Source: Carcharhinus amblyrhynchos (Eukaryota). From it: 64,000 nt of DNA. The stretch is taken from NCBI GenBank assembly GCA_965287045.1, contig OZ336872.1:93682001-93746000 (forward strand), given 5' to 3'. Under the pieces are notes generated by a model. The model ran no database searches, had not been told where the DNA came from, and was given only the letters and a program-made list of their open reading frames with translations. Made by a program: the position numbers and the translations under genes. How positions within the stretch are numbered: position 1 is the stretch's first letter; every line of letters starts with the position of its first letter. Below are positions 14,150-24,925 of this stretch, piece after piece.

Positions 14150-14850
14150 TTCACTCCATGTGATATCAAGAAATGACTGAAGGCACTGTGTACTGCAAAG
14201 GTTATAGGCCCTGACAACATTCAAGCCATATACTGAAGACTGTGTTCAAGATTATTAGCTGTCCCATGAGTCAACTGTTCCAGTACAGCCACAACACTAG
14301 CATCTACCCAGCAATGTGGAAATTTTCCCACTATTTCTTGTCCACGAAAATCAGGTCTATTCCCAGGCTAATTACTGCCCTATCAGTTTACCCTTGATCA
14401 TCAGTAACATGATGGTAGATGTCCTTGACAGCAATTTCAAATGACACTTACTACAATAATCTGTTCGCTGATGCTCACTTTGGGTTTTGCCAGTGTCGCT
14501 CAGCTCCTGATCTCATTACAGCTTTGGTTCAAGAATGGACAAAAGAACTGAACTCAAGGTGAGGTGAGAGTGACTGCCCTGGACATCAAGGCAGCATTTG
14601 GTCGAGTATGGCATCAAAGAGCTCGAGCCAAATTTGTCAATGACAATTGTGTAGAAAACTCTTCACTGTTGGAATCATATCTAGCAAAAAGGAAGATAGT
14701 TGTTGTTGTTGGGCGTGTCATCACAGACCTAGGACTCCATCAAGGTAGTGTCCTAGGCCCAAACATCTTCAGCTGCTTCATCGATAGCCTTCTCTCTATC
14801 CTAAGATCAGAATTGGGGATGTTTGTGGATGATTGCACAATGTTCAGTAT
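14150..14850 (+). mobile_element. Old CR1-group LINE reverse transcriptase fragment (5' part)
   Basis: Degenerate RT motifs: GPDNI, NYCPISL, ALDIKAAFGRVWH, QGSVLGP, MFVDDCTM (YADD-equivalent). Stops and frameshifts occur upstream of 14564. Confidence 0.85.
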
Positions 14851-15576
14851 TGTCCTTGTGCATGAGTCGCAAAAACCCAGCTTGCAGGTGCAGCAGGTGG
14901 TCAGGAAGGCGAATGGGATGCTGGCCTTCATAGCGAGGGGGATTGAATATAAAAGTAGGGAGGTCTTGCTGCAGCTGTATAGGGCATTGGTGAGGCCGCA
15001 GCTGGAGTACTGTGTGCAGTTTTGGGCGCCGCACCTGCGCAAGGATATTTTGGCCCTGGAGGGAGTGCAGAGGAGGTTTACTAGGCTGATACCGGAGTTG
15101 AGGGGGTTGAGCTATGAGGAGAGGCTGAATAAACTAGGCTTGTACTCGTTAGAGTTTAGAAGAATGAGGGGAGATCTCATTGAGACGTATAAGATGATGA
15201 ATGGGATGGATAGGATAGAGGTGGAGAGACTCTTCCCGCTCAAAAAAGACAGTAGGACTAGGGGGCACAGCCTCAAGATAAAGGGGAGGCGGTTTAGAAC
15301 GGAGTTGAGGAGGAACTTCTTCACTCAAAGGGTGGTGAATCTCTGGAATTCTCTGCCCGTTGAAGTGGTGGAGGCTGCCTCGCTAAATATTTTTAAGAAG
15401 CGGGTTGATGGGTTCTTGATAAAAGAGGGGATTAAGGGTTATGGGGAGAGGGCGGGAAAGTGGAACTGAGCCACGACAGATCAGCCATGATCTTATTGAA
15501 TGGCGGGGCAGGCTCGAAGGGCTAGATGGCCTACTCCTGCTCCTATTTCTTATGTTCTTATGTTGTTCTTATGTTC
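14851..15576 (+). mobile_element. Young 5'-truncated CR1 (HER1-like) LINE 3' end nested in the older LINE
   Basis: Uninterrupted CR1 ORF2 C-terminus (KANGMLAFIARGIEYKS...LVRPQLEYCVQFW...RRMRGDLIETYK...FFTQRVVNLWNSLP), 3' UTR gatggcctactcctgctcct and (TTCTTATG)n terminal repeats. The host LINE resumes at about 15577. Confidence 0.92.
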
Positions 15577-18117: not shown

Positions 18118-19027
18118 TTATTGTGTCCAATTGGTCCTCCAGCTTTGAAAATCCACCCACCATCCTTTGATGGCCAATTCTGGAAAAACCACTGCTGGGT
18201 TACTTATCTCCACCCTGTGTCAGGTTGAGACCCCCATTTAATGCTGACATTGAGGCCCCAATACAAAATCTCAAGTCCTGTTTCTGGTCAATAACGAGTC
18301 CCAGGATTTTTAAACTATCCATTACGGGACAATTAGTTATTTACTTGTATGTCCCCTCTGTGAGTAAAATATTTATTGCATTGTTAATAAATCTTATGGA
18401 CAAGGAGTTAGAATGGATTTTTAAAAACAGCAGGGATATAGATCATGTCTTCTTAAATATATTTCTACACAACTGCAGGAGATGCAACATCTACCACTTT
18501 ACCTCCTCCCTTCTCACTTTCCAAAGCCCCATACAATCCTTTCAGGTGAAAGAGTGATTTACTTTGTGCTTCTTTCAATTTAGTCTACAGTATTCATTGA
18601 TCATCCTTTACTTTGGGGACACCAACATAGTCTGGATGACTGCTCCACAGATCACCTCTGTTCAGTCAACCAACATGACACTGAGCTTCCTGTTGCCTGC
18701 CATTTTAATTCTCCACCTTGCTCTTACTTTAACCTTTCTTTCCTTGGCCTGCTGTATTGTAAAAAGTCTGACAACACCAGGTTTTAGTCCAACCGATTTA
18801 TTTGATAGTAAACGCACAAGCTTTCGAGGTTTCCCTCTTCGACAGGTGAATGGAGAGTTCTGGCCTCAGACAGAGCATATAAAGCACAGACAGTTTAGAG
18901 ATTACTGATTAGAATGCGAATCTTTACACCTAACCTGCTGTTCAAGTCCTAAAGTGGCCGACAATGTGAGTGGAAGGAGCACTGATCACAGGTTAAAGAG
19001 ATGTGTATTGTCTCCAGACAGCACAGT

Positions 19028-19487
19028 GACGCGGGCCATCTTCAAGTTTATCTGGACATCAAAGATGGATCGCGTCCGGAGGGAAGCGATGCACAAATCT
19101 CCAGAGAATGGAGGGAAAAACGTTCCCGACGCTGCCCTCATCCTGATGGCTACCTTTGTGTGCAGCTGCATCAAGCTGTGCATAGATCCTCGGTACACTA
19201 ACAGCAAGTGCCACTTTTTTTTGAGGTTCTACCTGTCCCGAGTGTTGCGAAGGATGGGTCTGGCCACACTGCCGCGGAACGCTCCGAGTAGTTGGACCGT
19301 ACTGCAGCACCTGTCCTTCGTGGAGAAATTTTTCTGCAAACACACCTTTGACCACACGGCGATTAAGCAGTGGTCAGCGCATAACGTCCTTGGGGCCCTG
19401 AGAGAAAAGGAGACGGCGGATCCTGTCGGATGGTTCCCTGAGCAGACTGTCAGTGTCATCTGGCAGAATGCCTCATCACCAGAACTG
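19028..19487 (+). mobile_element. Tx1/L1-clade LINE ORF2 internal fragment (post-RT region)
   Basis: Open frame TRAIFKFIWTSKMDRVRREAMHKSPENGGKNVPD...IWQNASSPEL. F.F.W...V.....GG..VPD is the L1/Tx1 post-RT signature. The segment is rich in GC and CpG and has no LINE 3' end. Confidence 0.8.
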
Positions 19488-19666
19488 ACTGTGCTGTCTG
19501 GAGACAATACACATCTCTTTAACCTGTGATCAGTGCTCCTTCCACTCACATTGTCGGCCACTTTAGGACTTGAACAGCAGGTTAGGTGTAAAGATTCGCA
19601 TTCTAATCAGTAATCTCTAAACTGTCTGTGCTTTATATGCTCTGTCTGAGGCCAGAACTCTCCATT

Positions 19667-19700
19667 CACCTGACGAAGAGGGAAACCTCGAAAGCTTGTG
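19667..19700 (+). ncRNA. Minimal (Penelope-type) hammerhead ribozyme motif
   Basis: CAC-CTGACGA-A-GAGG gaaa CCTC-GAAA-GC-TT-GTG: intact CUGANGA and GAAA cores, 4-bp stem II with GAAA loop, palindromic AGCT stem III, CAC/GTG stem I. Activity is untested. Confidence 0.8.
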
Positions 19701-20245
19701 CGTTTACTATCAAATAAATCGGTTGGACTAAAACCTGGTGTTGTCAGACTTTTTACCATGTTTACCCCAGTCCAACGCCGGCACATCCACATCATGACTG
19801 CTGTATTGTTGCAGTGAAGCTCAGCACAAGTTCAATGAACAGTATCTCATCCTTTGGGCACTTCGCAGTCTTCTGGACTCAATGTTCATTTCAACATTAT
19901 TAGATTATAATGTCAGCATACCTTCTGTCTTTTAATTTTCTTTGCTGTTTCTGTTGTGCTTGATTCGCTCTGATTTTCGTCAATTTCCTTTCAACCAACA
20001 GTTATTCAATTTGTTGCCATTCACACCTCCTCTAAAGGACATTACTTGACGTGTTACCATTCCTTTAGATCTTGCACCATGAAACCTTGTGTCACTGAAT
20101 CTCTCTTGCCTTCAATCTATTACAGATTTTCCCTTCTGTTCTTCTTCCCACTTGCATCTCCCTTCAACATCTTCCATTTGCTCAAGACCTATTATATTTT
20201 TTAACAACTGCCAGTTCTGATGAGAGATCACAAACCTGAAACCTT

Positions 20246-23190: not shown

Positions 23191-23779
23191 TTGAGAGGAA
23201 TGTATTTGCTCTATTTTAAAATTGTGCACCACAGGCTGGATTTTAGTGGCATGTTCTCCGCTGGGGGAGTGGGTGGGGCCATGTAAAATCTGAAGGGTAG
23301 CAAGTTCACTATCTTTGTACCCCTTTCCGAGCTTCTCCCTATGTTATGATAGGTGGGGGATTGGGAGGTGCTGGAAATAGGCAGCCCACCAGGGCATTTT
23401 AAAAAATAAATAACTAATGGTTAATTGAATGTTACCAGGCCAATAGACTGGAATAATATGCTGCCCATGCCATAAAACAGTTAGTGTGGGCAGTCTTTTT
23501 AAAAAGGTAGGCCATGGATGTGGGAGTTGGGGGTTTGGGGAATATTCTTCATAGGATGTGCTGTGAATTGGAGTAACCCCCTCACCCTTAAAATGGTAAC
23601 CCATCTTTGTTCCTCCTTTCCCAGCTTCCAAGAGCTGCTCCTCCATTGCCCCCCTTCCAGCAGCTGCCCAATTTGTCCTTGCCCTATAAAACAAGGAACC
23701 TACCTGGTTCCAGGATCTACATGGGCCTGCTTGTCGTCCCAGCAGCTTCTGCCACTGAGCTCTGGTACTGCCCTTGGCT

Positions 23780-23990
23780 CAGTAAGAAGTCTCACAACAC
23801 GAGGTTAGAGTCCAACAAGTTTATTTGATAGTAAACCCACAAGCTTTCAGGGTTTGCCCCTTCTTCAGTTGAGAGTCAACCCCGAAAGCTTGTGGGTTTA
23901 CTATCAAATAAACTTGTTGGATTATAACTTGGTGTTGTGAGACTCCTTACTGTGTTTACCCCGGTCCAACGCTGGCACTTCCACTTCATG
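23780..23990 (+). mobile_element. Short Penelope-type inverted-repeat element, same family as 18759-19797
   Basis: About 75-bp inverted arms (from 23780; to 23952), 38-nt tail tgtttaccccggtccaacgctggcacttccacttcatg, 13-bp TSD ACTGCCCTTGGCT at 23767-23779 and 23991-24003. Confidence 0.88.
23838..23871 (-). ncRNA. Minimal hammerhead ribozyme motif (antisense arm)
   Basis: Minus strand reads CAA-CTGAAGA-A-GGGG caaa CCCT-GAAA-GCTT-GTG. The cores are intact and stem I has a mismatch. Confidence 0.6.
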
Positions 23991-24925
23991 ACTGCCCTTG
24001 GCTGGGAGATCTTGTGGGCAGGACCTTCTCCCACTGAGAGGCTAACTGCCTGTTACTGCCTGTTTAGTCCACTAGTGGTGTGTTATGGTTGCAGGGCGGG
24101 CTTTTTATTTAAAGAAAGGTGCGTCAGCTGCCGGCTGTTTCTTGCAAGGGGATGGGAGAGTGGTCAGATAATGTGCCCACCCTTGTGAAATCCAGCCCCA
24201 TAAGCGTGCTTCATGTTCAGTAAAGTTACAGGCCTTGAAAATCAATAGGGCCATTTATATTGCTGTTGTGCCTGGAGGCAAACATTTTGTTCACTGATCC
24301 TCTCCAGCATTGACCCTGCCATAAATTGTGGGGTCAGTTAATTTAAATATCCATTTTCAGTTTAGAAGTGTAACCCATGGGGAGGTGGCTTGCAAATTAG
24401 GAGCATCACCTTCAAAAAGGCAATAAATAACAGAGATTTTAAACAGCTGGCTGGAGGAACAGCAGATAAGGAGGAAAGTGTTTGACACAGTTCAGTTAAC
24501 TTTCAGGTAGCTGTAATGGATGGTTCATATGTAATTATATGACATTTTTAAAGCATGTCTTCAAGTGGAAGATGCAGAGGTCACACAAAAGGAGGGAGCA
24601 AGTCAGTGAAAAGGATGATGTCAGCTTTTGTTCAATGATAGCACACGCTTTAAAAAAGTCTTGCATTTATATAGCACTTTCAAGACCACAACCCAAGTCA
24701 ATAGGTTCTGGATTCAAATCCACTTTAAGAGACTTAAACACATATTAATGCTGTTATGATCTCAGTAGACACCTGTAATGTGTTTATCTATTTTTAAGAG
24801 CCTGAGAACGCTGTGTTTACTGAAAGAATGAAGCCACGAGAGTCACAGGTTAAATTAAAATAAATTTGCTAACCAAAAACATTAAGGATCATGAACATTT
24901 ACAACGACACCACATTTTTTTAAAC

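What the first reader, a model, noticed from the sequence alone, without database searches (positions are those of the whole stretch)
18749..19809. Ribozyme-bearing Penelope fold-back element carrying an open fragment of an unrelated Tx1/L1 LINE as cargo
Seen: TSD CTGCTGTATTGT, then a 269-bp arm (18759-19027), a 460-bp insert (19028-19487), the 269-bp inverted arm (19488-19756, 268/269 matched), a 41-nt tail and the second TSD. The insert has no stops and encodes the L1/Tx1 post-RT signature. It lacks a LINE 3' end or poly(A), so ordinary target-primed LINE insertion does not explain it. Established: Penelope-like elements have direct or inverted pseudo-LTRs with a short 3' extension and minimal hammerhead ribozymes. 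Inference: the Penelope RT template-switched onto a foreign LINE RNA during insertion, giving a composite cassette. If cassettes with varied cargo recur, this is a Penelope-driven sequence-capture system in sharks. I cannot tell from the window whether it has been described.
Basis: partly seen in the sequence, partly recalled or inferred. Interest (0 to 1): 0.8.

Follow-up and report, generated by a model that had tools for sequence, protein, structure and literature searches.

The report
Penelope fold-back insertion carrying LINE fragment
A retrotransposon family whose copies normally sit as small palindromes has one copy holding a 460-base piece of an unrelated LINE in its middle, likely picked up during insertion; a second copy carries host DNA from another chromosome, so such capture recurs but is rare, and it is a behaviour already described in rotifers.

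Summary
The structure is in the assembly as described: 12-bp TSD, 269-bp inverted arms (268/269), 41-nt tail, minimal hammerhead, 460-bp stop-free insert. The arms are the 3' end of an abundant Neptune-type Penelope family (6,698 tail-less ends in three partitions). Fold-back insertion is its normal form: 150 TSD-bounded inverted pairs in 228 sampled loci. The insert comes from a U2-associated, Keno-like Tx1 LINE, is joined by 2-6-nt microhomologies and looks older than the arms (P 0.01-0.04). No donor above 97% was found, and both junctions are unique, so the cassette has not amplified. Only 1 of 150 sampled pairs carried foreign captured DNA (L298): 445 bp of single-copy host sequence, in both arms, traced to another chromosome directly upstream of a truncated Penelope copy, i.e. 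a 5' transduction. Best reading: capture during the Penelope insertion by its own RT (0.55); a DNA-repair patch is the main rival (0.28). Capture between pLTRs with TSDs is published (PMC3846280). Public short-read contigs confirmed the flank-arm junction but did not settle the cargo junctions. Verdict: a rare by-product of a known kind, not a dedicated capture system; the family is a useful resource for Penelope integration mechanism.

The parts
18749..18760 (.). left target-site duplication, 12 bp (last 2 nt shared with the arm end)
   Evidence: family TSDs are mostly 11-14 bp
18759..19027 (-). tail-less arm: 3' non-coding end (pLTR) of a Neptune-type Penelope element, family positions p269 to p1 (p1 = window 19488), reversed
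18815..18848 (-). minimal hammerhead copy with a changed core base (position 18842, core A6), likely inactive
   Evidence: sequence, arm difference; inactivity inferred from the conserved core
19024..19029 (+). left junction microhomology CAGTGA, shared by Penelope (antisense) and the LINE
19024..19489 (+). 466-nt internal ORF2 fragment (between RT and zf-RVT) of a Keno-like Tx1 LINE; best other copy 96.6%
19484..19491 (+). right junction microhomology: 2 nt perfect with the common LINE allele, 4 nt with a minor allele, 5 of 6 imperfect
19488..19756 (+). tailed arm: same Penelope 3' end, sense
19667..19700 (+). minimal type I hammerhead motif: stem I 3 bp, CUGACGA, extra A, stem II 4 bp with G10.1-C11.1, GAAA, palindromic AGCU, predicted cut after 19697
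   Evidence: sequence; fold; features as listed in PMC4209133; no Rfam hit
19757..19797 (+). 41-nt Penelope 'tail', present on one arm only; in tandem copies it leads into the ORF start
   Evidence: L261 shows tail followed by ORF start
19798..19809 (.). right target-site duplication

Best explanation
This is a single-copy fold-back insertion of a Neptune-type Penelope element whose centre holds a fragment of an aged Keno-like Tx1 LINE, likely captured by the Penelope reverse transcriptase during the insertion itself. Inferred steps: the GIY-YIG endonuclease nicks both strands 12 nt apart; two cDNAs start at the two initiation sites that bracket the tail (giving one tailed and one tail-less arm) and run to about the same 5' point of one truncated template; one of them continues onto LINE-containing RNA, either by a microhomology jump or because the RNA was already a LINE-Penelope read-through; the two ends are then joined by microhomology. 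Shown: the anatomy, the family's fold-back habit, coupled arm lengths, the filler-symmetry link, microhomologies, uniqueness, and one traced 5' transduction elsewhere (L298). The cargo has no evident function; it is a by-product seen in under about 4% of insertions.
For: One TSD bounds the whole cassette and the cargo sits exactly where the two arms are normally joined. 150 of 228 partition-sampled loci are TSD-bounded inverted pairs. Arms end within 6 nt of each other in 28 of 101 simple pairs, against 6.7 in shuffles (max 17 of 5000 shuffles). Fillers of 13 nt or more occur in 9 of 29 symmetric and 6 of 75 asymmetric pairs (Fisher p 0.005). L261 has the same layout (arms p161/p162) with a non-duplicated filler from the element's own tail/ORF-start region. 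L298 carries 445 bp of host DNA in both arms, 99% identical to a single locus on C4 lying directly 5' of a truncated Penelope copy; its p212-299 differs from that source at 9 sites against 3 substitutions and one indel in the host part, consistent with a template switch. The cargo has 8 CpG and 6 other differences from column majorities of 28 copies against 1 arm-arm difference; P 0.009-0.041 for equal age, so the donor was likely already aged, not an active LINE mRNA. Two adjacent RT start sites that explain the tail and nicking of both strands were shown in vitro for a Poseidon element (PMC11167929, parts 1-2 read).
Against: No donor locus and no second copy of either junction in the assembly; an aged donor should be present unless it is unassembled or lost, and DNA searches score only the best 40 candidates. 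Orientation cannot distinguish RNA from DNA templates in an inverted structure. Microhomology-flanked inserts are also the signature of host end joining. L298 differs from the focal locus in having cargo in both arms, so it proves capture by the family, not this route for this locus. The age test uses a guessed CpG rate (6-15x) and small counts.
Confidence: 0.55

Rival explanations
1. Host DNA repair (polymerase-theta-type or synthesis-dependent annealing) copied 460 nt from a genomic LINE copy to bridge the two cDNA ends during integration, or to patch a later break at the centre of the palindrome.
For: Microhomology at both ends; aged, CpG-decayed cargo fits a genomic DNA template; the short fillers in 17 of 150 pairs are mostly local templated duplications; perfect palindromes are break-prone (established knowledge, recalled).
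Against: Other fillers are at most 46 nt and local; the two long cases other than secondary insertions (L261, L298) both trace to RNA-like templates continuous with Penelope. The donor is missing under this model too. A later centre break would not by itself keep both arms ending within 2-6 nt.
Confidence: 0.28
2. The LINE's own ORF2p patched the break with its RNA, endonuclease-independently (non-classical L1 insertion type).
For: 3' truncation, no poly(A), no own TSD and microhomology match the criteria in PMC1920257 (passages); this LINE is young and abundant (1,552 candidates).
Against: Cargo carries 8 CpG changes against 1-2 in the youngest copies and looks older than the arms, unlike RNA from an active element acting in cis.
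Confidence: 0.07
3. An ordinary target-primed LINE insertion landed at the centre and a later microhomology deletion removed its 3' end and one TSD.
For: This LINE does insert into Penelope arms (L053); the left junction looks like a typical 5' truncation joint.
Against: Needs two rare events that both end within a few bases of the centre; the cargo should then be younger than the arms, and it looks older.
Confidence: 0.05
4. Assembly artefact joining repeats.
For: No independent read support for the two cargo junctions was obtained.
Against: Single TSD around the whole unit; contigs of three public runs cross the left flank into the arm; the cargo has its own unique variant combination, which a mis-join of existing copies would not create.
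Confidence: 0.05

Closest known systems
Neptune clade of endonuclease-containing Penelope-like elements (inverted 5'-truncated copy, one-sided 30-40-bp tail, minimal hammerhead; PMC8557442 and PMC4209133 passages)
   Same: RT + Cys linker + GIY-YIG ORF in sister copies, inverted head-to-head arrangement, tail on one arm, TSD, minimal hammerhead.
   Different: Here most copies are short near-symmetric fold-backs of the 3' end alone; this copy has foreign sequence at the centre.
pLTR-mediated capture of host DNA in Adineta vaga Penelope elements (Arkhipova, Yushenova, Rodriguez 2013, PMC3846280; parts 1-4 of 5 read)
   Same: Unrelated sequence between pLTRs, bounded by a TSD, mobilised in trans; authors also invoke read-through transcripts and template jumps.
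   Different: There the NRPS gene lies between two direct pLTRs; here the cargo is between inverted arms, is a LINE fragment, and in L298 is duplicated into a palindrome with an identified donor.
Keno (U2-snRNA-targeting Tx1 clade LINE; PMC4640811 passages)
   Same: Donor family has RT and zf-RVT domains, a poly(A) end, and copies that end directly before U2 snRNA sequence.
   Different: Most sampled copies are dispersed, so specificity is relaxed; the cargo is an internal fragment only.
Non-classical (endonuclease-independent) L1 insertions (Sen et al. 2007, PMC1920257 passages)
   Same: Internal LINE piece, no poly(A), no own TSD, microhomology.
   Different: Sits inside a fresh insertion of another element; donor looks aged.
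Non-LTR retrozymes (bioRxiv 10.64898/2026.07.22.740005, part 1 of 5; PMC7761336 passages)
   Same: Hammerhead-bearing non-autonomous Penelope derivatives.
   Different: Retrozymes are tandem direct repeats; this is an inverted pair that has not amplified as a unit.

Membership tests
Neptune-type PLE | single ORF with RT and C-terminal GIY-YIG endonuclease | tested here: met
   sister copy L023: RVT_1 E 7.7e-4 and GIY-YIG E 3.8e-4, both below Pfam's curated cut-offs; ORF text. The focal copy holds no ORF.
Neptune-type PLE | CX2-5CxxC linker between RT and EN | tested here: met
   C-x4-C-x2-C just before the endonuclease in L023 and others; feature from PMC8557442
Neptune-type PLE | placement in the Neptune clade by RT phylogeny | not tested
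   no named reference sequences held
PLE (general) | inverted truncated copy, one-sided 30-40-bp tail, TSD | tested here: met
PLE minimal hammerhead | core motifs, extra base between 9 and 10.1, G10.1-C11.1, palindromic 15.2-16.2 | tested here: met
   right arm 19667-19700 (features); left arm fails at core A6
PLE minimal hammerhead | self-cleavage (as dimer or protein-assisted) | not testable with these tools
   needs in vitro transcription; no Rfam hit
Keno (Tx1 clade), donor family | 3' end inserted in U2 snRNA genes | tested here: inconclusive
   L061 and L062 end directly before U2 sequence; 6 of 6 loci chosen for looking U2-like gave Rfam U2 hits; most of the other 24 LINE loci have unrelated flanks
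Keno (Tx1 clade), donor family | APE-type endonuclease; Tx1 clade phylogeny | not tested
   only RT and zf-RVT region scanned
Ordinary TPRT LINE insertion | poly(A) 3' end and own TSD | tested here: not met
   contrast L053
Amplifying composite non-autonomous element (capture system) | several copies of the same arm-cargo junction | tested here: not met
   1 match each for left junction (40 of 487 candidates scored), right junction with up to 2 mismatches and a cargo 33-mer
Amplifying composite non-autonomous element (capture system) | varied foreign cargo recurring among arm pairs | tested here: inconclusive
   1 of 150 unbiased pairs (0.7%, 95% interval 0.02-3.7%), plus the focal locus
Non-LTR retrozyme | tandem direct repeats each with a hammerhead | tested here: not met

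The most novel reading that the evidence does not exclude
This vertebrate Neptune family routinely performs 5' transduction and template switching: any transcript that runs into, or can be jumped to from, a Penelope 3' end is reverse-transcribed in trans and, because both arms copy one template, host sequence is written into new kilobase palindromes (L298) or into loop cargo (focal locus). With more than ten thousand insertions and a rate near 1%, tens to a few hundred such cassettes would exist, each a potential hairpin-RNA source, and together they would map the two-primer integration mechanism of Penelope elements in vivo.
Probability: 0.45. Interest if true: 0.58.

Novelty: new member of a known kind. 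Interest (0 to 1): 0.36.

Why it matters
The focal cassette alone is a molecular fossil of one insertion accident. Its value is as a pointer: how Penelope elements make inverted pLTRs and the one-sided tail is still open, and this genome holds thousands of resolved events. Coupled arm lengths, fillers where arms are symmetric, and a transduced host segment present in both arms with a known donor (L298) fit two primers on one sense template and are harder to fit to independent templates. They make a clear in vitro and genome-wide test possible. If the rate near 1% holds, the family also scatters palindromic copies of host sequence.

Tried and rejected
Rfam scan of the window: no match. Pfam on the insert: only a sub-threshold thioredoxin-like hit, ignored. 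Idea that p1 is a fixed 5' end or transcription start: 200 matches depart from the family within 8 nt of p1, but many are small internal deletions and in the unbiased sample only 2 of 208 arm ends fall at p0-19; rejected. Idea that this LINE targets the Penelope hammerhead (L008, L004): 3' flanks of the LINE loci are U2-like or unrelated; L008's start near the cargo's start was selected by my query; rejected. Idea that hammerhead cleavage at p210 is a general recombination point: linkage between sites upstream and downstream of p210 stays high in 259 arms; rejected. Donor hunt: three DNA searches and one exact pattern found none above 97%. A genome-wide arm-gap-arm pattern could not be run, so pairs were sampled: 228 loci, all from contig C1, anchored on tail-less ends, 1.5-2.5 kb inward; one fetch (L229) was mis-oriented; 78 loci gave no TSD-bounded inverted pair (solo copies, very short partners, off-edge or no TSD), so cargo longer than about 2 kb or in solo copies is not excluded. 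Short-read contigs (4 of 23 listed runs laid): X1, X2 and X5 cross the left flank 20-28 nt into the arm; the X19 contig leaves at 18757 (a likely empty site, far side not seen). No listed piece bridged either cargo junction, although pieces of about 50-58 nt might have been expected, and the best runs held 0.79-0.83 of the words; the tool warns that records are filtered, so this is left undecided. Literature searches for a shark Neptune description and for Penelope 5' transduction (where the prime sign may defeat the match) returned 0, 0 and 1 unrelated listing; two searches gave listings only; subscription papers are not covered. Earlier-finding look-ups returned nothing.

Full report
Observation. 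The sequence shows a 12-bp duplication at 18749-18760 and 19798-19809, inverted arms at 18759-19027 and 19488-19756 that differ at one base, a 41-nt extension on the right arm, and 460 nt between the arms. The insert is in a stop-free frame. The window lies on G000 contig C3 in a 2.92-Gb assembly; the species was not determined.

The arms. A genome search with the right arm gave 949 candidates; in 28 of the 29 other top loci the sequence continues upstream into an ORF with RT, a C-x4-C-x2-C linker and a GIY-YIG domain that stops about 40 nt before the arm start (Pfam scores below curated cut-offs). This fits a Neptune-type Penelope-like element as described in PMC8557442 (passages). The right arm holds a minimal type I hammerhead motif with the features listed in PMC4209133 (passages): extra base after A9, G10.1-C11.1, palindromic AGCU, predicted cut after 19697. 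The left copy has a changed core base. Rfam does not detect it and its folding energy is ordinary, so activity is untested.

Fold-back is the family's normal form. Three partition patterns on the tail-less 3' end counted 2,288, 1,957 and 2,453 matches, covering 7 of 16 flanking dinucleotides, so more than ten thousand ends are likely (inference). Of 228 loci sampled from these lists (all on C1), 150 are distinct TSD-bounded inverted pairs. In 11 of the 29 top arm loci with two full arms in view the centre is Penelope sequence only. In the first 179 sampled loci, arm ends lie within 6 nt of each other in 28 of 101 simple pairs against 6.7 expected from shuffling (maximum 17 in 5,000); ends come from BLAST boundaries and are approximate. 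Fillers of 13 nt or more are enriched in symmetric pairs (9 of 29 against 6 of 75, p 0.005). Plain centres overlap by a median of 2 nt (56 pairs). So the symmetry of the focal locus is a family trait, and symmetric joins tend to need filler.

The cargo. It matches a LINE with at least 1,552 candidates; intact copies have RVT_1 and zf-RVT domains and a poly(A) end. L061 and L062 end directly before U2 snRNA sequence and all six loci chosen for U2-like flanks gave Rfam U2 hits, as for Keno (PMC4640811 passages); most other copies are dispersed. Junctions show microhomology: CAGTGA on the left; AC, or ACTG with a minor allele, on the right. The best other copy is 96.6% identical; further searches found nothing closer. 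Both junctions are unique. Against column majorities of 28 copies the cargo has 8 CpG and 6 other differences, the youngest copies 1-2 CpG changes, while the arms differ at one site. A weighted binomial test gives P 0.009-0.041 for equal age. The donor was therefore probably aged, yet it is not in the assembly as far as these searches reach; this is unexplained.

Does capture recur? Of the 150 pairs, 129 have 12 nt or less of non-Penelope sequence, 17 have 13-50 nt, and 4 have more. L242 and L283 are later insertions of another LINE with its 3' microsatellite end (CR1-like by recall). L261 has arms at p161/p162 and a filler from the element's own tail and ORF start. L298 is a 1.24-kb palindrome with arms at p125/p125 and about 445 bp of host DNA in both halves, 99.7% identical to each other. 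That DNA has one full-length source, C4:112777944-112778392, 99% identical, lying directly 5' of a solo Penelope copy truncated at p125; no partner arm or TSD for that source copy was found within 9.9 kb upstream. This is a 5' transduction. The daughter's p212-299 is of another subfamily haplotype than the source's (9 differences), which suggests a homology-guided switch between p130 and p211, though later conversion of the source is not excluded. Foreign capture is thus 1 of 150 (0.7%, 95% interval 0.02-3.7%). Across all loci, biased ones included, 180 pairs gave the focal locus and L298 as the only such cases, and L053 as an ordinary insertion of the same LINE, with poly(A), 5' inversion and 17-nt TSD, into a Penelope arm.

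Independent samples. Of 23 listed runs four were laid. Contigs of X1, X2 and X5 cross from the left flank into the arm. The cargo junctions were not settled (see Tried and rejected).

Mechanism. In vitro, a Poseidon protein nicks both strands and starts reverse transcription at two sites that bracket the tail (PMC11167929, parts 1-2 of 4 read). Two such primers on one truncated template explain one tailed arm, one tail-less arm, near-identical arms and coupled lengths. The cargo is then most simply sequence that one RT went on to copy before the ends were joined (0.55: microhomology jump about 0.3, pre-existing chimeric read-through about 0.25). A DNA-templated repair patch gives the same junctions (0.28). 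LINE-driven patching (0.07), ordinary insertion plus deletion (0.05) and artefact (0.05) are less likely. Orientation does not help, since either strand's cDNA can carry sense cargo.

Comparison with what is known. PMC3846280 (parts 1-4 of 5 read) reports an intron-containing gene and other unrelated sequences captured between pLTRs with TSDs, and proposes read-through transcripts and template jumps; its supplements were not read. PMC1920257 (passages) describes 3'-truncated, TSD-less L1 pieces at breaks. The retrozyme preprint (part 1 of 5) and PMC7761336 (passages) concern tandem derivatives. Searches for a shark Neptune description or for Penelope 5' transduction returned nothing relevant, within an open-access library only.

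Verdict. Real in the assembly, correctly identified, single-copy, a rare by-product of a known behaviour. New member of a known kind; interest 0.36, carried mainly by the family-level mechanism data and by L298.

Noticed in passing
L298 (G000:C1:118653600-118656200), source L336 (G000:C4:112777944-112778392): 1.24-kb TSD-bounded palindrome with 445 bp of single-copy host DNA in both arms, traced to a locus 5' of a truncated Penelope copy; daughter's 3' end is of another subfamily. Clearest case of Penelope 5' transduction found.
   Followed up: yes
L261 (G000:C1:59655500-59658100): Symmetric arms (p161/p162) with about 140 nt of filler from the element's own tail and ORF start, same layout as the focal locus.
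   Followed up: partly
L109 (G000:C5:73065000-73068000), 915-1541: About 320 nt inverted duplication of the right flank placed between the tail and the arm, i.e. local DNA copied during insertion.
   Followed up: partly
L053 (G000:C35:19099079-19102468): Keno-like LINE with 5' inversion, poly(A) and 17-nt TSD inserted in the arm of a Penelope fold-back.
   Followed up: partly
L008 (G000:C34:8857529-8860605): Older Penelope fold-back cut off in the hammerhead region and joined to a 5'-truncated Keno-like copy; the rest of the arm is not in view.
   Followed up: partly
family positions p192-201 (window 19679-19688), 259 arms: Hammerhead stem II variants show almost no linkage (r2 mostly 0-5%) to subfamily haplotypes on either side, which are linked to each other: recurrent change or conversion of the stem, or alignment noise.
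   Followed up: no
family positions p160-179 (window 19647-19666): 49 of 208 arm 5' ends fall in this 20-nt stretch just 5' of the hammerhead: a truncation hotspot, cause unknown.
   Followed up: no
L061, L062; contigs C334 and C98: Arrays of the Keno-like LINE inside U2 snRNA gene clusters, spaced 4-22 kb apart.
   Followed up: partly
window 23767-24005: A second, older short Penelope fold-back (arms p179/p197, 13-bp TSD) with a plain centre.
   Followed up: partly
window 14552-15466: 305-codon open frame of a multi-copy LINE RT fragment (CR1-like by recall).
   Followed up: no
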